Shown piece after piece: positions 1 to 17,885 of a stretch of 17,885 nucleotides of DNA. Position 1 is the first letter of the stretch, and each line of letters starts with the position of its first letter. The translations under genes and the position numbers were made by a program. This DNA comes from Candidatus Velthaea sp. (GTDB lineage: Bacteria; Vulcanimicrobiota; Vulcanimicrobiia; Vulcanimicrobiales; Vulcanimicrobiaceae): assembly GCA_050012475.1 (NCBI GenBank), contig JBEKHC010000099.1, forward strand, positions 1-17,885. Direction: 5' to 3'. The notes below the pieces were generated by a model. That model saw nothing but the letters and a program-made list of their open reading frames with translations. It searched no databases and was not told where the DNA came from.

Positions 1-1304
1 CCGCCGCCGGCGGCAGCTCCGCCGCCCCCGCCCATGCCGCCCGCAGCCATCATCCCGACCTCCATGGCGTTCTCCTGGAGCTTGTTGACCGTGCCCACTC
101 CGGCATCCATCACGCCGCTCGCGGCGCCCATCACACTGTCGAGCGCCCCCGTCGCCGTCCCCGCGGCGGCGCTCAAGCCGCCCATGACGGCACCGCCGAC
201 CGAGCTGAGCGTCGACATCGCCGAGCCCATCGTCAAGCTGGGCGAACCGTTGAGCATCGACGCCGCCAGGCCCGGAAGTTTCGTCGTCAGCATCATGAAG
301 ATGATCGCCGTCGAACCGATGATGAGATAGTTGACCATCATACCGGGAACATAGACGTAGAAATCATTCGCGTTAAAGAAGTGCGTACCCTTAATAGCGC
401 TGAGCGCCGTGCAGATGCCGATCGTATCCGATCCGCCGCAATCGGTGGGAAACAGCGTCACTCCGAGTCCGACGATGAGCGAGAGCACGAACAGCTTGAT
501 CCCAATCGCGAAGGCGTAGCCGAACCACTTCTCGCCGAACGACATCGTCCAGCGGCTGCCGGTGAAACCCAGCAGCACGGCGCCGCCGCCGACCATGATA
601 TACGCCTCGATGAGCGTCATGATCAGCTGCCCGGCCGCGATCAAGAACGCGACGAAGACCACGAAAGAGATCACGACCGCCGAGAGACCCGCCGCGAGCA
701 TCGCGAGCGCCATGAACAGGTCGTCGTAGATCGAGTTGCCGACGTTGTTGAGATCGAAGTAGAAGTTCGCCCACGGCATGTTGGCAAAGATCATCCGGCA
801 GATCGCCGTGCCGATCTCGAACACGCCGGTCGGATTGTTGAGATCGACCGGATGCCCGCTGACGGCGCCGCCCAGTTGAATGAAGCTCTGCATGATCTTG
901 GGCAAGAAGTCGCGCGTGCCCTGATTGAGCAGAATGAAGTAGAAGAACGAAACGCCCATGACCTTAATGACCATCGCCGAAACCAGCTCGCCCAGATTTT
1001 CTTTCTGCAGCGTCCACAGGATCAGCGTCCAAGCGAACTCGATGCCCACCAGCAGGGTGAAGAATCGGGTCGCATTGGTCAAGGCGGTGTCGAGCCAGCC
1101 GATCGCCGCATTACAGTACACGTTGGGAAGTTCGTTGAGGCCGTTGTTGTCGGGACAGCCGCCCAAAACGCCTTGCCCGGCGGCGACGCTGTGCGGCACG
1201 ACGACCGACAGCACGCCGAAGGCGACCAGCGCGAGACACGTGGGAATGGCGAACCGCACGAGCGGATGCGCACCAAGCAGACGGGACCGGAACGAGCGGG
1301 TCAT
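1..1304 (-). CDS. trbL: P-type conjugative transfer protein TrbL (VirB6 family), 3'-partial (runs off window edge)
   Basis: Translated by hand from the ATG at 1304, which overlaps the trbE stop (ATGA) and follows a GGAGG RBS; open to position 1, so absent from the ORF track. Multi-TM protein with TrbL-type segments (ATRFFTLLVGIEFAW, QLIMTLIEAYIMVGGGAVLLGFTGSRWT, FAIGIKLFVL, KLPGLAASMLNGSP) and a Gly/Ala/Met-rich tail. Confidence 0.9.
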   Translation of the reverse strand, partial: MTRSFRSRLLGAHPLVRFAIPTCLALVAFGVLSVVVPHSVAAGQGVLGGCPDNNGLNELPNVYCNAAIGWLDTALTNATRFFTLLVGIEFAWTLILWTLQKENLGELVSAMVIKVMGVSFFYFILLNQGTRDFLPKIMQSFIQLGGAVSGHPVDLNNPTGVFEIGTAICRMIFANMPWANFYFDLNNVGNSIYDDLFMALAMLAAGLSAVVISFVVFVAFLIAAGQLIMTLIEAYIMVGGGAVLLGFTGSRWTMSFGEKWFGYAFAIGIKLFVLSLIVGLGVTLFPTDCGGSDTIGICTALSAIKGTHFFNANDFYVYVPGMMVNYLIIGSTAIIFMMLTTKLPGLAASMLNGSPSLTMGSAMSTLSSVGGAVMGGLSAAAGTATGALDSVMGAASGVMDAGVGTVNKLQENAMEVGMMAAGGMGGGGGAAAGG

Positions 1305-3814
1305 GACGCAACCTCCAGAAGAGCGTACGAAGCATCCGCGGGAGCGTTGTGCTTTCCGCCGATAGTGAGCCAGATTTTGGCCGCAGCGGCGAGGCCGCGC
1401 GCGGCGAGCCACTCCGAGGGCCACGTGTTGGGTGAGTGGGCGATCAACTCGCGGATCGCAGCGATGTCTTCACGTCCGCTAGCGCCGATGAAGCTAAGCG
1501 CGACGGGCCCGAGGCCCAGCTCGAACACGCGCCGTCCCAGCGGACTGACATAGAGATATTGACGCTTGGGCCGCAAGCCGGCGAGAATCTCGATCTGACG
1601 CTCGGTCAGGCCCATCGACAGATAGGCTTGCGATGAGAATTCGTTGCGCGCCTCGAGATTGGGCAGGAAGATCTTCGTCGGGCACGATTCGACGATCACG
1701 TCGCGAATCTCCGAACGCATCACATCGCTTATGCTCTGCGTCGCGAACACCACGGCAGCGTTCGATTTGCGCATCGTCTTGAGCCACTCGCGAATTTTGT
1801 CGCGGAAGATCGGCGAGCTGAGCATGAGCCAGGCCTCGTCGAGCACCAGCAGCGTCGGTTCGCCGTGCAGCCGGCGCTCGATGCGATGGAACAGATACAG
1901 CATGACCGGGACGACGTTCTTCTCGCCCAGCGCCATGAGGTGCGCCATCTCGAAGACTTGAAACGGATTGTCCTTGAGCCCGTCGCGATCGGCGTCGAGC
2001 AGCGTTCCTAAACTTCCCGAGAGCGTGTAGTGCGCGATCGCGTCGCGTAGCTCGGGTTCGGACAGGGTGTGCGCGAGGTCGGTGAGCGTGCGCTTGGGGC
2101 TTTGGGCAAGCAGTTCGAGTGCGCGATGGATGTCTTTGCGGAAGCGCGGCGACATCGTCACGCCCTGGAGCGAAAAGAGCGTTTCGAGCCAGTCGGCGGC
2201 CCAGACACGTTCGCTTTCATTGTCGATGTCGGCTAACGGATAGAACGCGAGCTGACTCTGTTCGCCGGCGATTTCGTAATGATCGCCGCCGCTCGCATTG
2301 CAGAGCGCGTACGCTGAGTTGCCGATGTCGAACGCGAAAATCTGCGCGTTGGGATAGCGGAAGTGCGACGCCATGAGGAAGCCCAGCAGCGTCGATTTCC
2401 CGGCGCCCGTGGGTCCGAGGATCAGCGTGTGACCGACGTCGCCGACGTGCAGATTGAGCCGGAACGGCGTGGCGCCGCTGGTCGCGGCGTACCCCAGCGG
2501 CGGGCTTGCGGGCGGATAGAACGGCGACGGATTGTTTGCCAGCCCGGCCCAAACGCTGGTGAGCGGCAGAAAATCGGCGAGATTGAGCGTGTGCATGATG
2601 GGGCGCCGCACGTTGGCATAGCCGTGACCGGGCAGCGAACCCAAATACGCTTCGACCGCGTTGACCGATTCGACGCGCGCGGTGAAGCCCGAATGGTTGA
2701 TGAGCTTGACGATGTCGCGCGCCATGAGATCGGCGCGGTCGGCGTCGTCTTCCATCACCACGATGACGCTAGAATAGTAGCCGAACTTCACCACGCCGCT
2801 CGAAAGCTCGGCCAGGGCGCCGATCGCGTCGCCGGCCATGCGGTCGGCGTCGGCATTGACGTGGGTGGCTTGGCCGCCCGTCTGTTCGCGCATGAGGTTC
2901 CCGAGTGACTTGCGCTTCTGGAACCACTTCTTGCGATACGTGTCGAGCTGTTTGTGCGCGGCGCCGTCGTCGAGAAAAATGAAGCGGTTCGACCAGCGAT
3001 AGGTCATCGGCAGCCGGTTGAGCCCGTCGAGGATGCCGGGGAAGCTCGAGGCGGGGTACCCGGAGAAGGCGATGCAGCGGATGTGCTTGTCGCCGATGCG
3101 CGGCGCGAGGCCGCCGTAAAAATCTTGGGCTCCCAGTACGGCGTCGAGGTACATCGGCACAGCCGGAACGTTGAACGGATGGGTCACGCCGCCGATGCAC
3201 GCGTCGAGGTGCGAAAGCAGCTCGTCGCGCAGGCATTCGACGCCGGCGGCGTCGCGATAGCGCGTGCTCTTGAGGCGCCGCATGTGCAGCGCCGACGACA
3301 ACTCGTCTTCGATCTCGCGCAGTCCGACGCGGAAATTTTCGAGCGCTCGTTCCAGCGCGGCATCGGCATCGTGGACTTTGCCGTCACCTTCGACGAGCAG
3401 ATTCTGAACGCGGCCCTCGAAATCGGCCGGCGGCAGATAGGTGACCGTCATGAAGAACGCGGTTTCGAAGTGTGCGCCTTCGGCTTCGTACTGGGCGCGG
3501 CGTTCCAGATCGATGAGCGCCGTCGTGCGATCGGCGAATTTGCCGCGCTCGGGGTAGGTGTGGGTCGTGTTGCGCACCGCGTCGACGTGGATCATCCAGC
3601 CGCTGCCGCGCCGCAAAAACGCTTTGTTGACGCGGGCGGAGACGGCGGCGAGTTCCTGATATCCGGCCGACTCGAGGTCTTCGCCGCGATATTCCCAGGC
3701 CGCCATCAAGCTGCCGTCTTTATTGAGCACGACACCGTCGTCGACGAGCGCCGCGTAGTTGAGCAGGTCGGGCAAACCTTTGGAGCGGTTGCGGAATTGA
3801 CGCAGTTGTAACAT
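1301..3814 (-). CDS. trbE: VirB4-family T4SS ATPase TrbE (~837 aa)
   Basis: Start MLQLRQFRNRSKGLPDLLNYAALVDDGVVLNKDGSL at ATG 3814 with a GAGG RBS (the ORF-track extension to 4084 overlaps trbD). DVGHTLILGPTGAGKST Walker A, LVLDEAW Walker B, FATQS, ESCPTKIFLPN. Confidence 0.97.
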   Translation of the reverse strand: MLQLRQFRNRSKGLPDLLNYAALVDDGVVLNKDGSLMAAWEYRGEDLESAGYQELAAVSARVNKAFLRRGSGWMIHVDAVRNTTHTYPERGKFADRTTALIDLERRAQYEAEGAHFETAFFMTVTYLPPADFEGRVQNLLVEGDGKVHDADAALERALENFRVGLREIEDELSSALHMRRLKSTRYRDAAGVECLRDELLSHLDACIGGVTHPFNVPAVPMYLDAVLGAQDFYGGLAPRIGDKHIRCIAFSGYPASSFPGILDGLNRLPMTYRWSNRFIFLDDGAAHKQLDTYRKKWFQKRKSLGNLMREQTGGQATHVNADADRMAGDAIGALAELSSGVVKFGYYSSVIVVMEDDADRADLMARDIVKLINHSGFTARVESVNAVEAYLGSLPGHGYANVRRPIMHTLNLADFLPLTSVWAGLANNPSPFYPPASPPLGYAATSGATPFRLNLHVGDVGHTLILGPTGAGKSTLLGFLMASHFRYPNAQIFAFDIGNSAYALCNASGGDHYEIAGEQSQLAFYPLADIDNESERVWAADWLETLFSLQGVTMSPRFRKDIHRALELLAQSPKRTLTDLAHTLSEPELRDAIAHYTLSGSLGTLLDADRDGLKDNPFQVFEMAHLMALGEKNVVPVMLYLFHRIERRLHGEPTLLVLDEAWLMLSSPIFRDKIREWLKTMRKSNAAVVFATQSISDVMRSEIRDVIVESCPTKIFLPNLEARNEFSSQAYLSMGLTERQIEILAGLRPKRQYLYVSPLGRRVFELGLGPVALSFIGASGREDIAAIRELIAHSPNTWPSEWLAARGLAAAAKIWLTIGGKHNAPADASYALLEVAS

Positions 3815-3837
3815 CACGATCCTCGTTATTGCTATTG

Positions 3838-4158
3838 CTATTGCTGTTTTTTGATGGTGGGGACGATCGCGTTGACCGCCGACCCGGCGGGGTAGAAGCT
3901 GCGGTACTTGACGTGGCGGAGATAGATCTTGGTCATCTGACTGTCGGCCTTGGCCATGCGCCCGAGCACGGCGACCGAGATGACCCAGAACGCGACCCCG
4001 GCGATTGCCAACACGAGGTTGCCGAGCATGAACACTAGCGTGACGGCGATGATCGCTGAGATCATCAGGGGTTCGCGTTCGCACCCCATCATCAGCAGCG
4101 GCCGCGTGAGCGAGAGGTGCACGTCGATCTTGCGGGGTCCGTTCTGTTGCGTCGTCAT
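3838..4158 (-). CDS. trbD: VirB3-family protein TrbD (106 aa)
   Basis: HLSLTRPLLMMGCERE motif, two hydrophobic segments, MAKADSQMTKIYLRH. TAATG overlap with trbC; canonical position between trbC and trbE. Confidence 0.93.
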   Translation of the reverse strand: MTTQQNGPRKIDVHLSLTRPLLMMGCEREPLMISAIIAVTLVFMLGNLVLAIAGVAFWVISVAVLGRMAKADSQMTKIYLRHVKYRSFYPAGSAVNAIVPTIKKQQ

Positions 4159-4481
4159 TAGACCGTGAAGCCGGTGATGTTCAGGGCCGTCACGAAGTGG
4201 CTGCCGGCGATGAGCAGCGCGAGCGACATGACACCGATGAGAACGCGCTTGACGAAGTTGCTCATCTCGTCACCGAACACGAGTCCCGCGCCCGCGGCGA
4301 ACAGGGCGATGACCGCGATCGTCGTCGCGACCGGGCCGGTCAGGCTATCTTGAATGGTCTGGAGCGGGCCTTCCCAGGGTAGCGCGGTTCCGCCGGTAGC
4401 GGCGAACGCGGGCGAGGCGAGCAGCACGAGGAGTGCGGTGAACGGGGCGGCGGTCTTGCTGATGCGCTTGATGGTCTTCAT
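4158..4481 (-). CDS. trbC: VirB2-family pilin TrbC (~107 aa)
   Basis: ATG 4481 with a GGAGA RBS; signal peptide ending SPAFA; LPWEGPLQTIQDSLTGPVA signature; two hydrophobic segments. Confidence 0.95.
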   Translation of the reverse strand: MKTIKRISKTAAPFTALLVLLASPAFAATGGTALPWEGPLQTIQDSLTGPVATTIAVIALFAAGAGLVFGDEMSNFVKRVLIGVMSLALLIAGSHFVTALNITGFTV

Positions 4482-4624
4482 CGTTCGATCTCCATGTGTG
4501 AGAGTGGTGAGGGCTGATGCGTGCCGGCGAAAGCTGCCGACACCCATAGCGTACGAATGCAGCGTCTAGACAGCGTCGCGGCTGCGTCCGAAAGCCGTTG
4601 TTTTGAAAAAAGCGTGTCTTCGAA

Positions 4625-4658
4625 AAGAAAAAAGAGCCGCAGCGCGGCTCTTTTTCTT
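4625..4658. terminator. Bidirectional intrinsic terminator between trbB and trbC
   Basis: AAAAAGAGCCGC-AGC-GCGGCTCTTTTT: perfect 12-bp inverted repeat (4629-4640/4644-4655) giving a U-tract on either strand. Confidence 0.8.
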
Positions 4659-4695
4659 GGTTCGCTAACGATGCGGCATTCGGCGTTGCCGATAT

Positions 4696-5700
4696 TCAGG
4701 CCGCGCGCTGCGGCTCCACGAGCGTCACCTTGGCGTCGAGCCGCTTGACGGTGTAACCGGTTTGCGGCGAATAGCCCGTCACGCGCACCACTTCTTGGAT
4801 GCGCCGGCCCTCGGGTGTGCGCACGATCGAGACGAGCAGATCGACGGCTTCGGCGATGAGCTGGGGCTGCGGCGGGACGTTGGCCTCTTGGACGAGTTGC
4901 TCGAGCCGGACCAGCCCGGCCACGGCGCTGTTGGCGTGGACCGTTGCCAGGCCACCCGGATGCCCGGTGTTCCAGGCTTTGAGCAGCGCCAGGGCTTCGG
5001 CACCACGGACTTCGCCGACGACGATGCGGTCGGGCCGCAGGCGCATCGTCGTGCGCAGCAGCCGGGTCATGTCGGCGCTGTCGCTGGTCTTGAGCGCGAC
5101 GTGGTTGGGCGCGCTGCACTGCAGTTCGACGGTATCTTCGATGATGACCAGCCGCTGCTCGCGGTGCTGCGTGCAAATCTCATCGAGCACGGCATTGGCC
5201 AACGTCGTCTTCCCCGAGCCGGTCGAGCCGACGATGAGGATGTTCTGGCGCTCGGCGACCGCCTGACGGATCACATCAGCCGTGTGTGGGTCGCAGATTC
5301 CTTTTTGGACGTAGTCGTCGAGCGTAAAAACGAGTCCAGCACGCTTACGAATCGCGAAGACCGGACGGTTGGAAATCGGCGGCAGCACGCCGGCGAACCG
5401 GCTTCCGTCGAACGGCAGGGTCCCCTCGAGGATCGGCTGCTCGGCGTTCACGGAAATTTCGAGTGCCGCCGCGATCGTCCGCAGCAGGTTTTCGGCTTGC
5501 ATCGCGCTCATCCGGACCCCGGTATCGCGCATGCCCTCGCCGAGCACGTCGAGCCAGAGCCCGCCGTCGGCGTTGAGCATCACTTCCACGACCGCCGGGT
5601 CGGCTAACGCCGCTACGATGGTGGGCCCCAACTCACGTTCGAGTTTTTCGCGCAGGCGCTTTGCTTGCTCCTCAGCGGCCGAGGTACCGTTTCCCATCAT
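4696..5700 (-). CDS. trbB: VirB11-family ATPase TrbB (~334 aa)
   Basis: RELGPTIVAALADPAVVEVMLNADG N-terminus, GSTGSGKTT Walker A, IIEDTVEL Asp box, RLRPDRIVVGEVRG, WNTGHPGG..TVHA His box. Start is one of the ATGs at 5697/5700/5706 near AAAGGGA. Confidence 0.96.
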   Translation of the reverse strand: MMGNGTSAAEEQAKRLREKLERELGPTIVAALADPAVVEVMLNADGGLWLDVLGEGMRDTGVRMSAMQAENLLRTIAAALEISVNAEQPILEGTLPFDGSRFAGVLPPISNRPVFAIRKRAGLVFTLDDYVQKGICDPHTADVIRQAVAERQNILIVGSTGSGKTTLANAVLDEICTQHREQRLVIIEDTVELQCSAPNHVALKTSDSADMTRLLRTTMRLRPDRIVVGEVRGAEALALLKAWNTGHPGGLATVHANSAVAGLVRLEQLVQEANVPPQPQLIAEAVDLLVSIVRTPEGRRIQEVVRVTGYSPQTGYTVKRLDAKVTLVEPQRAA

Positions 5701-5842
5701 CGCCATCCCTTTTGATTGCATGCATTGCCGGTTGCCGGCCCAGGACAGCGTACGTCTTCGCGCGTCCGCGCAGCGTCGGGTTATCGTCCGCTGCGACCGG
5801 CGCTCCCCCAGCAGCGGCTCGAAACTGCCGTCCGGCGGGCCG

Positions 5843-6673
5843 TCACAGCGTTTGCGGAGGAAGTTGGATGATGAACTCGGTTTCCTGCTGCAGGAGCACC
5901 GAATGAACGCGGGCATCCTGCCGAACGAGACCCAGATCCTCGAAGACGGAAAAGCGCGCGGTTCGAACGACGCCGCGGGTCATTTCCAGCCGTTCATGCC
6001 ACACCGCATACGTACCAAGCCGGCCGTCGCGACGGCGGTAATAGCCGCGCAGCGGGTGGGTTAGGACGAGACTCGTCTCTTCGGCCGTCGCGAAACCATC
6101 GAGCAGACCGGCCGGTTCGGCCGTGCCCGAGCAGCGCAGCAGCGCCGTACCCCAAGCTCCGCGCGCATCGAGGACGAAGTCGACGCAGCGGTGCTGCTCC
6201 CATCGAGCGCGGACCTCGATGTGCGCGCCGTGCCACGGCAGCTTCCACCCATAGCGGGGAACGGCGACGAGCGGCGTTCCCAGCATCGTTCCGAAAAACC
6301 AAACGGCGCGTTCACCGCGGTTTTTCACGTAAGCGCGATAGTTGATCTGATTGAAAGCGAAGCGGAGCCCGGGCAAGCAGACCATTCGAAAGTCGGCGTC
6401 GCGAAACGGCACTGCTGACACCAACGCTCGTTCGGAGCCGTCCGCCAGCGTGAAAACATCGGGCTCGAGGAAGGAAGGGAGCAACGCCCGGAGCCGTTTC
6501 GGGTCGACCGTAAACGACACGATTGCGAAATCGCAAAGACGCGTCGTCACGTCGATGCCCTGTACGCTAGGCCGCGACAACGCGGCCGCGGCCGTATTCG
6601 GCGGCGTCGAGGCGCGCCGCATCATCCGCTCGGGAGCGACGGTCCCGCCGAGCGTGTTGTTCGCTAGGTTCAT
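5843..6673 (-). CDS. DUF2071/YqjF-like protein (acetoacetate-decarboxylase-like fold)
   Basis: Pattern SFTVDPKRLRALLP..LEPD..ALVSAVPF..FNQINYRAYVK...AVWFF..RYGWKLPW fits DUF2071 as recalled; ATGA overlap with the upstream gene. Confidence 0.75.
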   Translation of the reverse strand: MNLANNTLGGTVAPERMMRRASTPPNTAAAALSRPSVQGIDVTTRLCDFAIVSFTVDPKRLRALLPSFLEPDVFTLADGSERALVSAVPFRDADFRMVCLPGLRFAFNQINYRAYVKNRGERAVWFFGTMLGTPLVAVPRYGWKLPWHGAHIEVRARWEQHRCVDFVLDARGAWGTALLRCSGTAEPAGLLDGFATAEETSLVLTHPLRGYYRRRDGRLGTYAVWHERLEMTRGVVRTARFSVFEDLGLVRQDARVHSVLLQQETEFIIQLPPQTL

Positions 6674-7950
6674 GACCGGTGCGGCGGTTTCGGAGGTGCC
6701 GGCTTGGATGCCAGCTGATCGGAGTTCGGTTTCCAGCGCAGTTGCGCGTCGGTGGACGGCGCCGACTTGCCGTCGACGGCCGGCCGAGTCAATTGCAGCT
6801 CGTTCATGACCTCGAGTGCGCCGGTCATCCGTCCCAACGCGGCGCGCGGCGGCACCGGGGGGGCTTGCTTGGCGGCAAGTCCATCAGCGTCGGGCTTCCA
6901 GCGTTGATCGGCGGCGGTCGTCGGCGACGATTGTTGCGCGCGCGCGGTTTCCTCTTCGCTGAGCGGAGTCCGATCGTAAGGACGGTCATCGATTTCTCTG
7001 TCGCCCGAACGCTGAGCGGAATCCATGGCACGCGTGACGTCCTCGAAGCGCTGCGGCTTGGGCAGCGGCTGCCGTTCGCGCAGCACCTTCTCCCACTGCT
7101 CGGGGGTCGATCGAAGCAGTTGGCGCTGTTCGGGATTGCGTTCGAGGTCTTTGAGGAGCTCGACGCCGAGCGGAGTGGATTGTCCGGGACGACGATACGT
7201 GTTCGAATCGCCGAATTGGTGTTCTTCGACGTGTTCGATCTTGAGGCGTACGCCGACGGCACGCGCCGCGGCACGATACGTCGCAACGGTCTCAGGCGAA
7301 GCGTCGCGGGCCAGCGGTGCCATTTTGGAAAGCTTCGCCAGGTCGCCGCCCAAGCGCCGCTTATCGGCCGTGACGACACCGGGATCGAGATCGGAACAAT
7401 ACGCGCCGGGCGCGACCTCCTCACGATTGTCGCGAACTCGCATCGCAGCAAGCTTATTCGCGTTTTCCGTTCGTTTGACGTCTGCGGGATTTTCGGCCGC
7501 GAACCGCGCACCCATCTTGCGCAGTCCGGGTGAGAACGCATCATCGTTCCGACCATCGATGAGGACGCTCTTGCCGACGTTGTCGCGCACGAGATCGTCA
7601 TAGGACTCGAGATCTTTGACCGTGACGGGAACGCCCGCCCGATTCGCTTGCCGCCAATACTCGAGCAAGTCGTCGCCGTTCGAGTCCGGCGTCGGAAGGG
7701 CAATGGTGTTGAACCGCCTGCCGAACAGACCCTTGTCGGGCTGCGGCGCGCCGGAGCGTTCGGCGGCGCGTACCTTTTCGAAACGGTCCTCGTAGCGCGG
7801 CTCTGCCTCTTGCGGACGAGACGATTCGCGAGTACCGATGGGTTGTTCCCGGACGTCGGGCGGTGTCTTTCCATAGTGGGAATTCGACGCTGGCCTCGAA
7901 CCCGATCCAAGTGTTCGGTCGTCGTCAAAAGATAGGCGCGAGTTTTCCAC
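6670..7950 (-). CDS. Hypothetical hydrophilic protein (~426 aa) with duplicated Pro-rich C-terminal motif
   Basis: Long ORF; GTG at 7950 preceded by an AGGAGA RBS; stop overlaps the DUF2071 start (ATGA). No family recognised. Confidence 0.7.
   Translation of the reverse strand: MENSRLSFDDDRTLGSGSRPASNSHYGKTPPDVREQPIGTRESSRPQEAEPRYEDRFEKVRAAERSGAPQPDKGLFGRRFNTIALPTPDSNGDDLLEYWRQANRAGVPVTVKDLESYDDLVRDNVGKSVLIDGRNDDAFSPGLRKMGARFAAENPADVKRTENANKLAAMRVRDNREEVAPGAYCSDLDPGVVTADKRRLGGDLAKLSKMAPLARDASPETVATYRAAARAVGVRLKIEHVEEHQFGDSNTYRRPGQSTPLGVELLKDLERNPEQRQLLRSTPEQWEKVLRERQPLPKPQRFEDVTRAMDSAQRSGDREIDDRPYDRTPLSEEETARAQQSSPTTAADQRWKPDADGLAAKQAPPVPPRAALGRMTGALEVMNELQLTRPAVDGKSAPSTDAQLRWKPNSDQLASKPAPPKPPHRS
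6679..6903 (-). repeat. Two diverged 60-bp in-frame repeats (RWKPDADGLAAKQAPPVPPR / RWKPNSDQLASKPAPPKPPH)
   Basis: Copies at 6844-6903 and 6679-6738. Conserved mainly at protein level with synonymous changes, which supports this reading frame. Confidence 0.75.
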
Positions 7951-8145
7951 GTTTGTTCTCCTGGAGCAGCCCCGGCGAAGGCGCATCGCCGTCGATCGGC
8001 ACCCGGTATCCTTGCTCGCAGAAAAGACGTGAACGAAAGCACTCCGGCTCACGCCAGAGGTAACCTCCGGGCGAATCGTGCCTGCCCGCACAAGCCGTGC
8101 CAACAGCCCCGCCGGGCTCGCCATTCTGGGGTAACCTCCCTTGCG

Positions 8146-9715: not shown

Positions 9716-10036
9716 TGTGAGATTGAGAAGACGATGCAACTAGCGCGAAGAGGATGCAACTAGGCGAGAAGAGGACGCAACTGGACCCATAAAGCGGCGC
9801 TGAGGCGCAAAACGCATCGGAGAGGGGAGGCCGTACCAGAGCAGGGTAAGGACACCCCCAACCCTGGCACGGTGATGTGTGACGGGCCGGTTTTTCCGGG
9901 ACCAACCCAGCCACCCTCCATCGCTTACCTTACATAGCAAGTAAGGCAGCGCAAAGAGGCAGCAGGCTCGCGACGACCTCCCATAGAGCGCGATTTGTGC
10001 GCGACGGCGCCGACTAGCGGAGAAGAAGACGCAACT
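9716..10036 (+). mobile_element. Tn7/Tn5053-like transposon end (TGT terminus + four putative TnsB/TniA sites)
   Basis: TGTGAGATTGAGAAGACGATGCAAC at 9716-9740. Cores: GAAGACGATGCAACT 9727-9741, GAAGAGGATGCAACT 9747-9761, GAAGAGGACGCAACT 9768-9782, GAAGAAGACGCAACT 10022-10036. It begins where thpR similarity ends. No tnsABC/tniAB in this window. Confidence 0.75.
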
Positions 10037-10087
10037 GAGGGCGTGTCGTTTCGTCGCCTATGGCGATGCTAGTAGGCGCTTACCTGG

Positions 10088-11350
10088 ATGTTTGATTCCC
10101 CCTTCGGGCGATCACCCGCACCTGGAACACCGATCCGTTCGCCACACCGCCGCGGCCGGCCGTCCCTGCGGGAACGCCCCGAACAGGTGGCGTTTGCGCC
10201 GGCGGTACCGGTAGCGCTTCGCCTCGATCCCGACCCTGAGCAGCGGACCTGGTATGGAGGCTGGCGACGCAAGATTGAGCTCCCAGCGTGTCGGCTAGTG
10301 TGGGTTGGCGATGCGATCCAGGCACCGGGTCTATCGCGTGGTTGGCACGTCGAGGTGCTGGTCGCGCCGTTGACGAGCCCCGGCGCTTCCGCGCTACAGG
10401 TTCTGACGTTGCCGATGAGCGTGCTTGGCTTGCTCACCGTAGGCCGTGTGCTGGAGGACCCGTCCCAAGAGAAGCCGGCGCACGGTTTTGGCGGTCCGGG
10501 CCCACAGTTAAGCTTCCTGGGCAGCGAGTGGATCGTCGAACTGGACTTTGGCACGCCTCACACGTCGATCGTGAGCGCCGCTGCCTTGGGCCTCTCGGTG
10601 ACACCCCTCCCGCTACGGTTTGCCGACTCGCCGCTGTGCGTGGTCAACGATCTGAGCGCAGGCAAGCTAGTGCTCATCCCTTGTTGGGAGCTTTTTCGGT
10701 TCTACTACGCGCAAATGCCGGCGGTGGCGCGCCTGGTCCTGGACTTTCCGCGTTGGACGCAGGCGACGCTCGAGCGGCTTCTGGGTTTCTTCGACGGCCA
10801 TCGCTTTTCAAGCTCGGTCGCCCGACCGAGCGTCCCTGGCTTGGGCGCAGCCGCCCAGCTGCGCGCGATCGGTCGCGACGCGGCGGTTTCGTACGCCCGT
10901 CGCGGGCGCGTTCAGATTCGGGCCGTCCCGCCGTTTGCCGGGCCCACCATCCTTGAGGTCGTGGGCCTCCCGACGCTGGTCGGGGAACACGAAGCGCTCT
11001 TCGTCCAGCAGATCCTTGAGTCGCGGCCGTTGCCCGCGGGGCAGCCGGGAATCCGGTGGTGGTCCAAGCCGGTGGGTCCAGCCTTCGGCTCGCACGTCGA
11101 ACACCTGGCATGGCGGGTGATGTACTTCACCGGGACGCTCCCGACGACGCTCATGCCGCTGGCAACCTGGGAAGCCTTCGTTGAGCTCGCGGAGCGGGCG
11201 CCCGCCTTACTCCGGATCCGGCACATCGAGGACCCGGACACCTTGCGCGTCGGCTTCTTACACGCGCTGGCGCGCCAGCGAGCGTTCGTGCCGAAGCTTA
11301 CGGCTCGCGGGCGCGCCAGGCCGCATACGCCTGCACGAGGCGAATCGTGA
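10088..11350 (+). CDS. TnsE-like protein (N-terminal domain similarity, divergent C-terminus), 420 aa
   Basis: Colinear blocks RLVWVGDAI..WHVEVLVAP, LGLLTVGRVL, VLIPCWELFRFYY, PPFAGPTILEVVG..LFVQQIL resemble the recalled Tn7 TnsE blocks QVVHIGHLF..WRIFVWFNP, LPLLSRAKVV, YHIPQLELAR.LF, PPPMQGWKLHVKG..YLVEEIV. Start codon uncertain. Confidence 0.6.
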   Translation: MFDSPFGRSPAPGTPIRSPHRRGRPSLRERPEQVAFAPAVPVALRLDPDPEQRTWYGGWRRKIELPACRLVWVGDAIQAPGLSRGWHVEVLVAPLTSPGASALQVLTLPMSVLGLLTVGRVLEDPSQEKPAHGFGGPGPQLSFLGSEWIVELDFGTPHTSIVSAAALGLSVTPLPLRFADSPLCVVNDLSAGKLVLIPCWELFRFYYAQMPAVARLVLDFPRWTQATLERLLGFFDGHRFSSSVARPSVPGLGAAAQLRAIGRDAAVSYARRGRVQIRAVPPFAGPTILEVVGLPTLVGEHEALFVQQILESRPLPAGQPGIRWWSKPVGPAFGSHVEHLAWRVMYFTGTLPTTLMPLATWEAFVELAERAPALLRIRHIEDPDTLRVGFLHALARQRAFVPKLTARGRARPHTPARGES

Positions 11351-11940: not shown

Positions 11941-12164
11941 ATGCAGCCCGAACCGCCGCCCGCGCCTCATCCCAGCCCGGCCGAACCGCTCCGCGCCCCG
12001 CTGATCGCCCGCCCGGGCCGGGCCGAAGAAGAGGTCGCCGCGCTGCCGATTCCGCCCGACACCACCGACAACGAGCTCGTCGCCCTGTGGCTGCACGGCA
12101 AGAGCCCCAACACCATCCGGGCCTACAGTGAGGACGTCGCCGCTTTCCGGGCCTTCACCGGCAA
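11941..12164 (+). pseudogene. Tyrosine recombinase/integrase N-terminal (SAM-like) fragment truncated by the Tn3 insertion
   Basis: DNELVALWLHGKSPNTIRAYSEDVAAFRAFTGK is a typical integrase N-terminal pattern (SxNTxRAY..D...F). The frame then enters the Tn3 IR and stops at 12192. Confidence 0.8.
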
Positions 12165-12202
12165 GAGGAGAAGACACGAAACGGAATTTTAAGCACGTTA
12201 AG
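12165..12202 (+). repeat. Tn3-family 38-bp left terminal inverted repeat
   Basis: GAGGAGAAGACACGAAACGGAATTTTAAGCACGTTAAG: 38 bp with a Tn21-like inner part ending ACGTTAAG; starts GAGG rather than GGGG. Confidence 0.85.
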
Positions 12203-12329: not shown

Positions 12330-13865
12330 TTATCGGATCGGGTGCTGGCCGAGATCGTGGGGGCCTATGCCGCTGCGGGCCGCCTCGATAGCGACTTCGT
12401 CGTCCGTCAGGCGCCGCTTGGCGGCAACATCTCCACGAACACGATGCATCACGCCGACGGGGGCGGCAGTTGTAACACGCGGAGCGGATTTATCAAATGT
12501 GATAGCAAGAATGGCTACGTCGTCGACCGGCTTCACGGCCGAGAAAAGAGCTTGCTCGATGGCCCGCGCAGGATTCGGTTCTTTCATTGCGGTGCGCATC
12601 AGTTCGAGTAAGCGAGCGAGTCCTGCGATGATGTCACGGTCTTGCTCGATCACTCCGTCAGTGTAAAGCAGCAGTGTCGCACCTGGCGGAGCCGTTAGCT
12701 TAAAATCCTTATACCTCGTATCGAAGAAAACTCCGAGCGGCAAACCATCATATGGCAGAAGGACCGGAGCCTCACCCGGGTCAGCCAGCATCGGTGGCGG
12801 ATGTCCCGCCGTCGCATACACGAGCTCGCGCGTAAAGGGGTCGATAAAACCGACAATCACCGTTACCATGTGCGGCTCTTGAAGCATGAGCGCCCTGTTC
12901 GCGCGTTCGAGCACCTTTGCCGGATCATCGTCTTGGAGTGCAGCTGCAAGAAGCGATTGTCGAACCCGGTTCATAATGACGGCAGCAAGAAGTCCATGAC
13001 CTCCGACATCGCCGATCGAAAACATGATCCGTTTGTCGGGCAACTCATAGACGTCGTACCAATCGCCCCCGACGAGCAGATGGTGAGCCGCCGGACTATA
13101 CACCGCGTCGAACGTCAAATTCGGAATCGCAGGCAGCGAGTTGCCGGCGAGCGCCTTTTGGAGCAGAGTTGCAACTCGTCTATGGCTTCCGCCAGACACA
13201 CGTGCGAGAACGAGTGCGTACGCTGACGCTATCACCGCGATCAACGCCGCGATAACGAACGTTAGCAAGATGCGCAACGAACGTTCTGACTCTTCGTCTG
13301 CTTTTGCTGCGGCGTGACTAAGCCGCTCTTCCAGCTCCGCATTGTCTCCGCGGAAGCGGTCGACGATGGCTTTGCCGCGGCGTTGTAGTGCGAGGGTCGC
13401 GGGTGAGAAGCGCCAGTCGGCCAGCAGTGGTTGCGCGACCACCGTCAGCCACTCATTGTTCATCCGCTCCTGATCCGCTTCAAGCAACACCGCTCGGTCG
13501 ATTCGAAGGTCTTGTAATGCGCGATGGAGTTTCGGGAATGCAGCGGAGAGTTTAGGGAGCGCCAGGCGGTAGGGTTCAAGGAACCACGGGTCACCGGTGC
13601 CCGTATAGCCCCGAACGCCCGTTTCCTCGTCGAGTTGATACCTCAAAACGCGCGCCCGCAAGGCCTGCACGATGCGGATCTCGCGCTGGTACGCTGCGCT
13701 CGTCTTCGCGCGATCGAAGACTGCCCACCCCGCAACTAGGAGCACGGCAATAACGATCACCAGCGCTGGTATCGTGGTGTACGCCTCATTCGCTAGAGCG
13801 ACTCGCCGCATCGGCACGTCAGCGACATTCTGAGGACGATACGGTCGCGACCTAGCGCTGTACAT
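12330..13865 (-). CDS. Membrane sensor phosphatase: TM-CHASE3-like-TM-SpoIIE/RsbU (PP2C)
   Basis: LDEETGVRGY..TGDPWFLEPY (CHASE3-like) between two hydrophobic segments; PP2C motifs VGGDWYD, DVGGHG, AGHPPP, YTDGVIE, DDVAIL. True start may be ATG 13811. Confidence 0.92.
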   Translation of the reverse strand: MYSARSRPYRPQNVADVPMRRVALANEAYTTIPALVIVIAVLLVAGWAVFDRAKTSAAYQREIRIVQALRARVLRYQLDEETGVRGYTGTGDPWFLEPYRLALPKLSAAFPKLHRALQDLRIDRAVLLEADQERMNNEWLTVVAQPLLADWRFSPATLALQRRGKAIVDRFRGDNAELEERLSHAAAKADEESERSLRILLTFVIAALIAVIASAYALVLARVSGGSHRRVATLLQKALAGNSLPAIPNLTFDAVYSPAAHHLLVGGDWYDVYELPDKRIMFSIGDVGGHGLLAAVIMNRVRQSLLAAALQDDDPAKVLERANRALMLQEPHMVTVIVGFIDPFTRELVYATAGHPPPMLADPGEAPVLLPYDGLPLGVFFDTRYKDFKLTAPPGATLLLYTDGVIEQDRDIIAGLARLLELMRTAMKEPNPARAIEQALFSAVKPVDDVAILAITFDKSAPRVTTAAPVGVMHRVRGDVAAKRRLTDDEVAIEAARSGIGPHDLGQHPIR

Positions 13866-14029: not shown

Positions 14030-14677
14030 TCATCGTCGGCTGATTTCATCGACCACGTCTGGCGATAGGGCCGGCATTTTAACGCGGTCGCGCTTGACGA
14101 TATCCAGGACGGTATTCTTGCTCAGCCCGAGCCGGTGGCTGATTTCGCGGTAAGACTGTCCTTCGCCGACGAGCTTTAGCACTTTCGGCGCAAAACGGTC
14201 CGCCTTGATCCGCTGTCCGGGCCGCCGGCCGAACACGACGCCACGTTCGCGTGCGGCCGCAATACCGGAGCGGACCCGTTCGCGCAGTAGATCCCGCTCA
14301 AACTCTGCCAACGCCGCCATCAGGGAAGCGATTAATTTTCCCTGCGCGCTACGGAGATCGAACTGCAAGCCGGTCTGAGCCACCAGCGACACGTTCCAGG
14401 CCTGTAGGTCCTGCAGCGTGTGGAACAGATCGAGCATCGATCGGCCCCAGCGGGTGAGTTCGGTAACCAGGATGACGTCGATCTTGCGGGCCTGCGCCAA
14501 TGCGAGAACCAGTTTGCGTTCGGCGCGCTCGTCCTTAGCTCCGGAGGCGGTTTCTTTCCAGACCCCGACGACTTTGTAGCCGGCCTTTTTGGCGAAGGCG
14601 CGCAGATCGCTTTCCTGTCGGGCACAGGTCTGGTCGGCGGTGGATACCCGGCAATACAGCGCGGCAGACTGTCCCAA
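14030..14677 (-). CDS. tnpR: Serine resolvase (~215 aa)
   Basis: TTG start at 14677 after GAAGGG; YCRVSTADQ catalytic motif, VTELTRWGRS, AEFERDLLRERVRSG, FGRRP, C-terminal HTH (SYREISHRLGLSKNTV). Confidence 0.95.
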   Translation of the reverse strand: MGQSAALYCRVSTADQTCARQESDLRAFAKKAGYKVVGVWKETASGAKDERAERKLVLALAQARKIDVILVTELTRWGRSMLDLFHTLQDLQAWNVSLVAQTGLQFDLRSAQGKLIASLMAALAEFERDLLRERVRSGIAAARERGVVFGRRPGQRIKADRFAPKVLKLVGEGQSYREISHRLGLSKNTVLDIVKRDRVKMPALSPDVVDEISRR

Positions 14678-14767
14678 TTGAACCCTTCGCGCCAAACACC
14701 CCGGAAACGGGCCTTTTCGTGTGGCAGAGTGTTGGTCTATTCAAAGTATACTTCAAAGGGGACAGGC
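14678..14767. promoter_or_regulatory. Divergent tnpR/tnpA promoter region with putative res site I
   Basis: Palindrome AAGTATACTT (14744-14753) gives TATACT on both strands and has a central TATA with GTC/GAC flanks. Position is as in Tn3-type res; subsites not resolved. Confidence 0.45.
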
Positions 14768-17745
14768 ATGCCGCACCGAGAGCTGCTCACCGAGCCGCAG
14801 CGGGTCAGTTTCCATGCGCCCGCGAGCGATGAGCGAGAGATGGTGCGCCACTACACGCTGAGCTCCGAAGACCTGGCGCTGATCAATCGACGTCGCGGTG
14901 ACCCCAACCGTCTGGGCTTCGCCCTCATGCTCTGCTACCTGAGATTTCCGGGGCGGATCCTCCAACAAGGAGAGCGACCTCCGGCCGCGCTGTGCGCCTT
15001 CGTCGCGGAGCAACTGGGTGTTGATCCGGCGCAATTCGGCGACTACGCCGAGCGGGATCAAACTCGCCGCGAGCACATCGTTGAGATCCAGACCGCCCTC
15101 GGGTTTCGCGCCATGACCAGCTCAATGTATCGAGAAGTTTCGGCCTGGCTGTTGCCGACGGCACTCGCGACCGATCATGGGCCCACGTTGGTGGCCACCG
15201 TGCTTGAGGAATTGCGCGTGCGCCGCATCGTCTGCCCGCCACTGCCGGCCATTGAACGGCTCGGGGGCTCGGTGAGAGCCCGTGCGCAGCGCCAACTGTG
15301 GCGTTGGCTCGCTGACGGGCTGACCGATCGGCAACGCCAGGGATTGGATGAACTGCTCGAGGTCCGCGTCGGCGGCGGACAAAGCACGCTGGCGTGGCTG
15401 CGGCAGACCGCATATGCGGCGACGAGCGGCAACTTTCCTAAGCTAATCGAGCGACTAAGTCAACTGCGCGCGCTCGGCATCGAGTCGGAGCGTGCCACGC
15501 GCGTTCATCAGAACTATTGGCTCAAGCTTGCGCGCGAAGGCGGGCAGAGTACCGTGCAGCACTTGGCGGAGCTCGAGCCGCTGCGCCGTTACGCCACCCT
15601 GACGGCGGTGGTCCTTGATCTCACCGCGACGCTGACCGATGAGGCGCTCAACATGTTCGAGCATCTCATTGGGAAGCTGTTCAAGAAATCCGAACGCGCA
15701 CACGCCGACGAGTTTCACGCCAGCGGCAAATCCATCAACGAGAAGGTTCGACTCTATGCCCGGATCGGCAAAGCGCTGATCGCAGCGCGCTCCAGCGGCG
15801 GGATGCCTTTGCCGCCATCGAGGCCGTTTTGTCGTGGTCCAAATTTGAATCGACCGTCGCCGAAGCCCAGATTCTCGCCCAGCCTGAGGAGTTCGACTAT
15901 CTGGGGCTGCTGAACGAGCGCTACGGCACGGTGCGCAAGTTCGCGCCGCTGCTGCTCGCGCATTTTGAATTCCATGCCGCCCCGGCCGCAGCCGAACTGT
16001 TGCAGGCTCTCAATCTGCTGCGCGACCTCAATGCCAGCGGCAAGCGCGCGCTGCCCGAGCACGTGCCGACGGGCTTCGTAAAGCCACGCTGGCGGCCTCA
16101 CGTGTTTGCCGTCGGTGGGGTGGATCGGCATTTCTACGAGCTGTGCGCGCTTGCGGAGCTGCGCGATCGCCTGCGCGCCGGCGACATCTGGGTGACGGGG
16201 AGTCGACAGTACCGGGATTTCGAGACGCATCTGATTCCCGCCGCAACTTTCGAGACGATGCGACAACAGCCGCTGCCCCTGGACATCGACACGCACTTGC
16301 CGTCCTACATGGCCGAGTATCGACACAAGCTGGAGGACAGCCTCACCACCGTCGCGCGCAAGGCACGGGAGAATACCTTACCCGATGTCACGCTCACGGA
16401 CGGAGATCTGCGCATCGCGCCGCTGCGCAAGAACACGCCGGAATCCGCTGAAGTCTTCGCTGAAAATGCCTACGCGCTGATGCCGCACGTCAAGATTACC
16501 GAACTGCTCGCGGAGGTCGATCAGTGGACGAATCTGGGCGATCAATTCTTGCATCTGCGCACCCAGGTACCACCGAAAAACCGGCAGGCCTTGCTCACCG
16601 CGGTGCTGGCCGATGGCATTAATCTCGGGCTCACGCGCATGTCCGAGGCCTGTCGCGAGACGACCTGGCGGCAATTGTCCTGGACTGCCGATTGGCATGT
16701 GCGCGAGGAGTGTTATGCGCAGGCCTTGGCCAGTCTGATCGATGCCCAACATCGACTGCCCCTGGCGGCTCACTGGGGCAGCGGCACCACCTCATCCTCG
16801 GACGCGCAGTTCTTTCGCGCCGGAGGCCGTGGCGAAGTCGGGGGACTCGTGAACCTGCACTATGGTCAGGACCCCGGCGTCAAGTTCTACACTCACCTAT
16901 CCGATCAGTTTGGTCCCTTTCATTCCAAGGTGATTGCCGCGACGGCCAACGAGGCGCCCCACGTGCTCGATGGACTGCTCTATCACAAGAGCAGTCTGGT
17001 CATTAACGAGCACTACACCGACACCGGCGGATTCTCCGATCACGTCTTCGCCATGTGCCACTTGCTCGGCTTCCGCTTTGCGCCGCGCATCCGCGATCTG
17101 AAGGAAAAGCGGCTCTACACCTTACCGGGTATGACTGTGCCGCCGGAGCTCACCTCGCTGGTGGCCGGAGCCATTAATCTGCGCGCACTCAGCGATCATT
17201 GGATCGAACTGCTGCGCCTGGCCATGTCGATCAAGACCGGAACGGTCACCGCTTCGGTCATCCTGCGCAAACTCTCGGCTTACCCTCGGCAAAACGGCTT
17301 GGCGCTCGCGCTGCGTGAACTGGGCAAGCTGGGACGGACACTCTTTACGCTCGAGTGGCTGCAGGACCCCGAGCTACGTCGCCGTAGCCACGTCGGCCTC
17401 AACAAGGGCGAGCAGCAGAATGCGCTTCGCCGTGCGGTGTTCTTCAACCGGCTCGGTGAAATCCGCGACCGCTCCTATGAAAACCAGCGCCACCGCGCCA
17501 GCGGTCTCAACCTGCTCGTCGCCGCCATCATTCTTTGGAATACCACCTACCTGCAGCGCGCCCTGGAGCACATGCGAGAACAGGGGTACAACCCGGAACC
17601 CAGCGATCTCGTCCATCTGTCGCCCCTGGGGTGGGAACACATCAACCTGACCGGCGATTACCACTGGGGCACGTCACCAGCGCTCGGGCCAGATCAATTC
17701 CGGCCCCTCCGGATCCGTGCACTCGATCTCGGCGCCGTCGCTTAG
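14768..17745 (+). pseudogene. tnpA: Tn3-family transposase (~992 aa if repaired) with a 1-bp frameshift near 15800
   Basis: MPHRELLTEPQR..NRLGFALMLCYLRFPGR N-terminus; the reading continues DAFAAIEAVLSW in another frame from 15802. DDE-region motifs SSSDAQFF, HYTDTGG, LNKGE; HLSPLGWEHINLTGDY C-terminus; the stop lies inside the IR. Confidence 0.93.
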
Positions 17746-17764
17746 CGTGCGTAAAATTCCGTTT
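17741..17764 (-). repeat. Inner 24 bp of the Tn3 right IR
   Basis: Reverse complement AAACGGAATTTTACGCACGCTAAG matches 12179-12202 at 22/24 positions; similarity stops abruptly at 17765. Confidence 0.88.
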
Positions 17765-17885
17765 GTCGGGTGAAGGACTGGCGCGGTGCCGACGGTTTAG
17801 CGTCTGTCCGTTTCCAGCCCCTCCCCATAAGAACTGCTCGTGAAGTTTTCCCTCAAGCAGCTCACCCCGCAAGTTTCGGCGAAAG
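17765..17885 (-). ncRNA. Group II intron 3' end (domain V, domain VI, 3' splice site), partial
   Basis: Minus strand: DV GAGCTGCTTGAGGGAAAACTTCACGAGCAGTTC (17863-17831; AGC triad, 2-nt bulge, GAAA-type loop). DVI GGGGAGGGGCTGG...CCAGTCCTTC-A-CCCGAC, with a bulged A at 17771 (7th nt from the end) and terminal AC. Confidence 0.88.

What the first reader, a model, noticed from the sequence alone, without database searches (positions are those of the whole stretch)
17741..17885. Group II intron inserted precisely inside a Tn3 terminal inverted repeat
Seen: the right IR matches the left IR for the inner 24 bp and then switches to the intron 3' terminus (minus strand ...CACCCGAC^AAACGGAATTTT), antisense to tnpA. 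The intact left IR shows the probable empty site GAAGACACG^AAACGG. Known: IS4321/IS5075 target Tn21-type IRs, and group IIC introns target terminators/attC sites; I do not know of an intron lineage specialised on Tn3 IRs. Inference: a retroelement homing to transposon ends, which would immobilise the host Tn3 and has a second potential target 5.6 kb away.
Basis: partly seen in the sequence, partly recalled or inferred. Interest (0 to 1): 0.75.

Follow-up and report, generated by a model that had tools for sequence, protein, structure and literature searches.

The report
Retargeted intron splitting a transposon end
A self-splicing mobile intron, whose relatives aim at the active-site codon of one large group of transposase genes, has changed its two aiming sequences to match the end repeat of an unrelated Tn3 transposon and sits inside that repeat, a natural case of a mobile element switching address.

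Summary
Confirmed. A group II intron 3' end (17765-17885, minus strand) splits the right 38-bp inverted repeat (IR) of a Tn3-family transposon at bp 14/15. The rest of the intron (class F, g2 group; 435-aa RT, no endonuclease) lies on the adjoining contig. A near-identical metagenome copy has the outer 14 bp as 5' exon, and one sequencing run holds the empty allele.

The family is not a Tn3-end specialist. Of 57 distinct relative sites, 53 are R-W-x-x-E or R-G-x-M-E codons at the catalytic Glu of IS4-superfamily transposases; none is a Tn3 end. This intron's exon-binding sites EBS1 and EBS2, located by covariation, have switched. They pair with the IR at 8 of 8 tested positions (family consensus: 4 of 8). 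The only two perfect 11-position matches in the genome are empty copies of the left IR; 3 of those 11 positions were added after the fact.

Only one insertion event is documented. About 100 close RT relatives could not be read in context, and a second 3' flank probably exists, so 'retargeted variant' is supported and 'specialist lineage' is unproven. Targeting of IRs has a published precedent (RmInt2). One other relative has switched to an IS1634 end.

The parts
17765..17885 (-). 3' end of a class F (g2) group II intron: tail of domain IV, DV (about 17863-17831), DVI (about 17826-17768) with branch A at 17771, last base 17765. The intron continues on G000:C30:2-1928; full length about 1982 nt with the 55 nt seen only in L103.
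   Evidence: Rfam hit, fold, contig overlap, L103
17741..17764 (-). Inner 24 bp of the right Tn3 IR, serving as 3' exon; overlaps the tnpA stop codon
   Evidence: 22 of 24 identical to the left IR; empty allele in run X1
14768..17745 (+). Tn3-family transposase tnpA (Tn21-like clade by best hits), split by a frameshift near 15800
   Evidence: DUF4158 and DDE_Tnp_Tn3 in two frames; NF033527; best plasmid hits 55-59%, including TnAs1/TnAs3 types; contigs of X1 and X3 cross the place without a gap, X2 and X4 show a length variant
14030..14695 (-). Serine resolvase tnpR, divergent from tnpA
   Evidence: Pfam Resolvase E 5.7e-38
12330..13865 (-). Cargo gene, CHASE3 sensor plus SpoIIE (PP2C-type) phosphatase
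   Evidence: Pfam
12165..12202 (+). Intact left 38-bp IR (starts GAGG); empty potential target between 12178 and 12179, Watson-Crick match to the intron's binding sites at all 11 positions scored
11941..12164 (+). 5' part of a gene cut by the left IR; resembles a tyrosine-integrase N-terminus (my reading, no Pfam hit)
   Evidence: 93% DNA match to G000:C22, which runs on past the cut; no Pfam family

Best explanation
A class F/g2 group II intron whose RNA address has been reprogrammed. SHOWN: relatives insert inside the Glu codon of the Y-(2)-R-(3)-E-(6)-K motif of IS4, IS5, IS50-like, IS701 and IS1380 transposases. They pair with exon positions -1 to -4 (EBS1) and -9, -10, -12, -13 (EBS2), leaving the Arg wobble base (-11) and the variable codon (-5 to -7) free. 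In this variant EBS1 reads CGUGUC instead of CGAUAA, the EBS2 core reads CUCU instead of CACG, and the stem carrying EBS1 is rebuilt. The new sites pair with bp 1-14 of this Tn3 IR and no longer with the family target. INFERRED: the RT-lariat particle reverse-spliced into the IR strand that reads from outside inwards, and, having no endonuclease, was copied using a replication-fork primer as other En-minus introns are. Each transposon offers two targets on opposite strands. The 2-kb insert separates the IR tip from the inner transposase-binding part, so this end probably cannot transpose, and the intron must spread by homing to other IR copies. The switch is documented for one variant and may be recent.
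For: Both junctions and the empty allele are seen. Covariation in relatives: EBS1 positions 1-4 pair in 54/54, 45/54, 54/54 and 54/54 intron-target pairs (permutation p at most 5e-5 for positions 2-4); EBS2 pairs at -9 53/53, -10 52/53, -12 52/53 and -13 44/53 Watson-Crick, each minority base at -10 but one being compensatory. The variant pairs 8/8 with both IRs, the family consensus only 4/8; the variant reaches at most 6/8 on 57 family targets. In 5.36 Mb only 2 sites are Watson-Crick at all 11 positions, both left-IR copies. EBS1 sits in a 7-nt loop of the rebuilt stem. EBS2 is dispensable for splicing of class F introns in vitro (PMC3753933), so a matched EBS2 points to selection on homing. 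The same IR type recurs in G003 and in 2 of 4 viral pattern hits.
Against: One insertion event only (C99/C30 and L103 are the same locus). A match between EBS and flank is partly expected for any insertion. Positions -5, -6 and -14 are not paired in the family and were added after seeing the IR; on the 8 validated positions 30 genome sites are Watson-Crick perfect (3 are IRs) and 1579 pair with wobbles. The pair at -13 is weak (p 0.056) and related introns are not independent, so the p values overstate. Two assemblies break one base past the intron end, implying another 3' flank that I could not read. Many close RT relatives come from JGI data, yet the metagenome scan for this EBS1 found 1 intron among 13 hits, and a scan for intron-end plus Tn3-IR junctions found 0. 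Perfect left-IR sites stay empty. No sigma-70-like promoter was found in the 700 nt upstream. C30 lacks the intron's first 55 nt, so this genome's copy may be dead.
Confidence: 0.77

Rival explanations
1. Bystander hit: the variant's real home is another repeated site with the same paired bases (for example an R-G-x-H-E codon run in an IS1380-like transposase, or another transposon's end), and the Tn3 IR happened to fit.
For: A second 3' flank differing from +2 is implied in two assemblies. Depth over the last bin is about 2-3 times that over the transposon in all 4 runs, though summed over organisms. Relatives L039 (EBS1 CGUG, R-W-E-H-E) and L029/L032/L042 (R-G-E-M-E) show that single switches stay within transposase codons.
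Against: The best matches in the genome are IR copies, including the empty left IR, which fits better than the occupied right IR. With 1579 sites allowed by the 8-position rule, landing on one of a few IRs by chance is unlikely. IS1380-targeting relatives use CCCG, not CUCU.
Confidence: 0.14
2. Adaptation after the fact: a family-type intron landed ectopically at G^AA in the IR, and its EBS sequences later changed to match the flank.
For: The family consensus already pairs 4 of 8 positions; one insertion known; the variant has a somewhat longer branch than its close relatives (0.04 versus 0.008-0.022).
Against: Of 57 family targets only 1 pairs as poorly as 4/8 with the consensus, and that one (L023) has its own matching EBS. 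A non-coding IR gives no reason to select for splicing, and EBS2 is not needed for splicing. About seven coordinated changes plus a rebuilt stem would be needed.
Confidence: 0.06
3. Assembly chimera joining an intron from elsewhere to the IR.
For: The junction is next to a graph branch, and C30 has a 133-nt gap relative to L103.
Against: An independent assembly has the outer IR at the 5' end; run X2 crosses the 3' junction; EBS-IR complementarity cannot come from misassembly.
Confidence: 0.02

Closest known systems
B.th.I3 of plasmid pBMB67 and the g2 group of class F introns (Toro and Martinez-Abarca 2013, PMC3552965; not the different intron called B.th.I3 in PMC2504315)
   Same: FADD motif, RT plus maturase without endonuclease, 435 aa, about 1.98 kb; 68.7% DNA identity over 88% of the query
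   Different: B.th.I3 sits in the R-W-Q-I-E codons of an IS4-family transposase with family-type EBS; this intron has changed EBS1 and EBS2 and sits in a non-coding Tn3 IR. Table S2 lists host loci only as 'transposase' or 'non-coding'.
RmInt2 of Sinorhizobium meliloti (PMC4615759)
   Same: En-minus intron whose copies lie in terminal inverted repeats, two targets per element on opposite strands
   Different: An RmInt1 relative (class D, recalled) that targets ISRm17, with many copies and homing shown by experiment; here class F/g2, a Tn3 IR, one insertion, no experiment
IS4321/IS5075 (IS1111 family)
   Same: Insert into the terminal IRs of Tn21-family transposons (title of Partridge and Hall 2003 as cited in PMC11187229)
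   Different: DNA elements with a DEDD transposase, not RT retroelements; their exact position in the IR was not checked here
Introns that home to the RT active-site codons (M.a.I5, P.l.I2, the B. thuringiensis israelensis intron in PMC2504315)
   Same: A lineage tied to the codons of a catalytic motif of another mobile element, as the g2 family is tied to YREK
   Different: They target YADD of reverse transcriptases; a different intron class

Membership tests
Group II intron | DV with catalytic triad and DVI with bulged branch A, ending AY | tested here: met
   Rfam full-model hit 38.1 bits (gathering 40), fold z -5.07
Group II intron | RT/maturase ORF in domain IV | tested here: met
   RVT_1 and GIIM; TIGR04416 351 bits, cut-off 300; gene on C30
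Group II intron | 5' end GUGYG-like with EBS1-IBS1 pairing | tested here: met
   Start GCGTG in L103, as in most relatives; EBS1 6 of 6. The start is absent from C30
Group II intron | Splicing and retrohoming activity | not testable with these tools
   No RNA or bench data
Class F, group g2 | FADD in RT5 | tested here: met
   RFADD in P0001; feature from PMC3552965
Class F, group g2 | No endonuclease domain; 5-nt DV loop; long DVI | tested here: met
   435 aa, only RVT_1 and GIIM; fold; features from PMC3753933
Class F, group g2 | Clusters with named g2 members in an RT tree with all classes | tested here: inconclusive
   No tree with reference classes was built; 68.7% DNA identity to B.th.I3; nested among Bacillus-containing relatives in quick trees
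Class C (IIC), terminator/attC type | No EBS2, insertion after a stem-loop | tested here: not met
   EBS2 pairing covaries in relatives and fits the IR
Tn3-family transposon (host) | Tn3 transposase, resolvase and 38-bp IRs | tested here: met
   IRs start GAGG; tnpA frameshifted
Tn3-family transposon (host) | 5-bp target duplication | tested here: not met
   Left flank and right flank (from L103) differ, so the two ends come from a rearranged copy; a 5-bp duplication is seen for the same IR type in L134
   0 of 63 3' flanks; RT identities 67-82%
Group IIB-type exon recognition | EBS3-IBS3 pairing at +1 | not tested
   +1 is A in 56 of 57 relative flanks and here; EBS3 was not located

The most novel reading that the evidence does not exclude
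The whole peat/soil subclade around this RT (about 100 sequences in two clusters, 87-97% identical) has left the IS4 catalytic-Glu codon and specialised on Tn3-type ends. g2 introns switch repeatedly from a codon-tolerant address (4-base EBS1, split EBS2 skipping wobble positions) to transposon termini, as a second relative did with an IS1634 end, giving a natural series of reprogramming events.
Probability: 0.3. Interest if true: 0.68.

Novelty: new variant of a known kind. Interest (0 to 1): 0.55.

Why it matters
It gives a before-and-after picture of how a retroelement changes address in nature: the ancestral target, the pairing rules and the changed bases can all be read off. The family rule is itself useful: one intron group reaches five insertion-sequence families across many phyla by pairing only with the bases fixed by a catalytic motif. 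I did not find this in the searched literature. It also suggests a role in homing for the class F EBS2, which is dispensable for splicing, and gives natural compensatory changes to test that. An intron that splits Tn3 ends would be a one-way brake on a transposon family that spreads cargo genes, although this particular IR type was seen only in environmental sequence.

Tried and rejected
My first reading was a one-off ectopic insertion; dropped. I first took C30's 5' flank for a second intron copy or a Tni-type end; L103 showed the same locus with 133 more nt. The missing 5' 55 nt were not found elsewhere in G000. Pattern for intron end plus Tn3 inner IR in metagenome contigs: 0 hits. EBS1 pattern: 12 of 13 metagenome and 2 of 2 viral hits were chance non-intron matches. 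No close copy in 60 relatives, 400 phylum genomes (1 hit at 82%) or 347 family genomes (hits at 78% and 76%); these genomes are incomplete samples. Viral RT scan gave 1 relative, family-type site. Plasmid relatives reach at most 77-81%. A scan for inverted-repeat partners of the insertion site in 53 relative loci found none above 20 of 30; it also missed L023, whose IS end was shown only by cross-genome comparison. Of 4 non-own hits for the outer-IR pattern among 400 genomes, 3 were chance. Whole-domain-I folding was uninformative (z -2.2). The first tree did not finish its careful search and held one mis-extracted row (L047); it does not show that this intron and L023 are sisters (86, open fork; not grouped). 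The read layout hid 163 loose-end rows, so the second 3' flank was not seen. Ten literature searches found no paper on g2 introns at the YREK codon or on introns in Tn3 IRs; subscription journals, the intron database and bioRxiv supplements were not searchable.

Full report
Observation. The window is the whole contig G000:C99. Its last 121 nt are, on the minus strand, the 3' end of a group II intron: Rfam Intron_gpII over the full model at 17865-17765, 38.1 bits against a gathering score of 40, E 1.8e-4, folding as DV plus a long DVI with a bulged A at -7. The next 24 nt match the inner part of the left IR at 22 of 24. Between the IRs lie a CHASE3-SpoIIE cargo gene, a resolvase and a Tn3 transposase split by a frameshift near 15800. 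The 38-bp boundary of the left IR is fixed by exact copies with other flanks on C4 and in G003 and by a miniature copy with identical 5-bp flanks in L134.

The rest of the intron. C99 overlaps C30 by 122 nt, the overlap shown by 34 of 70 contig-end overlaps (each pair counted from both sides). C30 carries a 435-aa RT/maturase with FADD and no endonuclease. C30 lacks the intron's start. L103, a metagenome contig 99.9% identical to C30 over 3223 nt, has 133 extra nt there: 63 of host DNA plus 1 shared base, the outer 14 bp of the right IR (GAGGGGAAGACACG), and the first 55 nt of the intron. Run X1 holds the empty allele with the same outer 14 bp, and a contig of X2 crosses the 3' junction by 29 nt (4 of 23 listed runs were laid). 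The insertion is therefore precise, at bp 14/15, and the intron is about 1982 nt. The outer flanks of the two IRs share no 5-bp duplication, so the transposon has been rearranged since it inserted.

Class. The FADD motif marks group g2 of class F (PMC3552965, parts 2 and 3 of 4 and Table S2 read). The g2 member B.th.I3 on pBMB67 is my plasmid hit H2, 68.7% identical over 88% of the query. No tree with all reference classes was built.

What relatives target. A scan of GTDB representatives found 170 relatives and kept 79 loci at 67-82% RT identity. The start was located in 72 and the end in 69. Of 57 distinct 25-nt 5' flanks, 50 encode R-W-x-[IVMHT], 3 encode R-G-x-M and 4 something else; -1 is G in 57 of 57 and +1 is A in 56 of 57. 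A few R-W-type sites are not in an open frame, so the motif is recognised as DNA. I sent 56 of 117 exon pieces to Pfam and 37 hit DDE-type transposase families; 12 of 12 chosen pieces hit IS4, IS5, IS701 or IS1380 models in NCBIfam, 4 below the curated cut-off. The split codon is the E of Y-(2)-R-(3)-E-(6)-K, the catalytic glutamate (PMC2266710, passages). None of 63 3' flanks resembles the Tn3 IR (best 13 of 24).

How they pair. Alignment and covariation place EBS1 in a hairpin loop about 200 nt into the intron. Its first four bases pair with -1 to -4 in 54/54, 45/54, 54/54 and 54/54 pairs; the next two do not pair (7/54 and 4/54). An EBS2 about 30 nt upstream pairs with -9 (53/53), -10 (52/53), -12 (52/53 Watson-Crick, 1 wobble) and, weakly, -13 (44/53, p 0.056), skipping -11. 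Three or four introns per site were dropped where the anchor motif was not found. The skipped positions are the Arg wobble base and the variable codon, which would explain how one intron group reaches many IS families (inference). Relatives are not independent, so the permutation values overstate the support.

The switch. This intron has EBS1 CGUGUC and EBS2 core CUCU; neither occurs among 59 distinct relatives, whose commonest states are CGAUAA (35) and CACG (46). The stem under EBS1 differs from the family's but still presents the six bases in a 7-nt loop (z only -1.1 for this short piece). On the 8 validated positions it pairs 8/8 with the right IR (one wobble) and 8/8 Watson-Crick with the left IR; the family consensus pairs 4/8; against 57 family targets the variant reaches at most 6/8. 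Adding -5, -6 and -14, chosen after seeing the IR, only 2 sites in the genome are Watson-Crick at all 11, both left-IR copies. Without them, 30 sites are perfect (3 IRs) and 1579 pair with wobbles. Because class F EBS2 is dispensable for splicing in vitro (PMC3753933, abstract and passages) and the IR is non-coding, the matched EBS2 is best read as selected for homing.

Limits. Only one insertion is known. The RT belongs to a well-supported subclade: clusters of 79 and 20 members, with the listed members at 87-97% identity, a few singletons at 84-95%, then a gap to 82% or less. Their DNA could not be reached. Many come from JGI data, yet my EBS1 scan of the JGI collection gave 1 intron in 13 hits, which suggests that most keep another EBS1, unless the collection lacks them. 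Both the G000 assembly and run X2 break exactly one base past the intron end, implying another 3' flank. Perfect left-IR sites are empty, no promoter was found upstream, and this genome's copy may have lost its 5' end.

A second switch. L023 has EBS1 CCGC and EBS2 CUGG(G), matching its own flank. Empty homologues L124, L127 and L128 keep the sequence for 8 nt past the site and then diverge, and the neighbours are DUF6788 and an IS1634-type transposase (below cut-off). So this relative sits 8 nt from the tip of a probable IS1634-type end. The trees do not show the two variants to be sisters.

Mechanism. Shown: anatomy, both junctions, empty allele, family target, pairing rules, changed EBS. From established knowledge: En-minus introns reverse-splice into the target and use replication-fork primers (PMC4424553, passages). 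Inferred: homing into IRs as the variant's way of life, two targets per transposon on opposite strands, and loss of transposition at the split end.

Comparison. It works like RmInt2, whose copies lie in the IRs of ISRm17 (PMC4615759, passages), but it belongs to another class and targets a Tn3 end. IS4321/IS5075 use Tn21-type IRs by a DNA route (reference title only). Passages of PMC2504315, PMC6542083, PMC6199540, PMC8632793, PMC7306698, PMC8643678 and PMC12584367 say that introns hide in mobile elements but do not describe the YREK target or a Tn3-IR target. Ten searches found no such paper; subscription papers, the intron database and most supplements were not seen and could hold it.

Verdict. 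A real, precise, EBS-directed insertion by a retargeted g2 intron. New variant of a known kind, interest 0.55; the lineage-wide reading has probability about 0.3.

Noticed in passing
L023:3480-5461 (empty homologues L124, L127, L128): A g2 intron with EBS1 and EBS2 switched to a site 8 nt from the tip of a probable IS1634-type element end, next to a DUF6788 gene.
   Followed up: partly
L012-L090: The g2 family as a whole targets the catalytic Glu codon (YREK motif) of IS4, IS5, IS50-like, IS701 and IS1380 transposases in many phyla, pairing only with codon-fixed bases.
   Followed up: yes
L046:5457: Two intron copies head to tail: the 3' end is followed directly by another intron start.
   Followed up: no
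L134:301-365: A 65-bp miniature element made of one full IR of this type, a short spacer and the outer part of a second IR, with a 5-bp duplication, in a viral contig.
   Followed up: no
G000:C153:5899-7803 (L011): A second, unrelated group II intron with a 509-codon open frame (YADD), running to the contig end; the start of C92 matches its 5' junction.
   Followed up: no
G000:C4:31843-31880, C6:79833-79990, C9:69043-69710 (L007, L009, L010): A lone exact copy of the left IR beside a sigma-factor gene, 6 kb from another Tn3 element with a GGGG-type IR, and decayed remnants of this transposon on C6 and C9.
   Followed up: partly
window 1-5916: Conjugal transfer cluster on the minus strand: TrbB-like ATPase, small pilin-like genes, TrbE/VirB4 and TrbL/VirB6; with the cut integrase-like gene at 11941 this suggests an integrative element hosting the transposon.
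   Followed up: partly
window 10088-11350 and 6670-8124: Two long ORFs (420 and 484 aa) without any Pfam family.
   Followed up: no
window 9738-10037: Three copies of a 25-nt repeat (spacing 21 and 254) in a non-coding stretch.
   Followed up: no
L103:2695-3108 (G000:C30): Fragments resembling a metal ABC permease gene and a TniB-like gene (my reading of short DNA matches) between the right IR and a serine hydrolase gene with a beta-lactamase-family domain.
   Followed up: no
G000:C93:4456, 5965, 7474: Three near-identical sites spaced 1509 nt apart, found as perfect 8-position matches; probably a tandem repeat.
   Followed up: no
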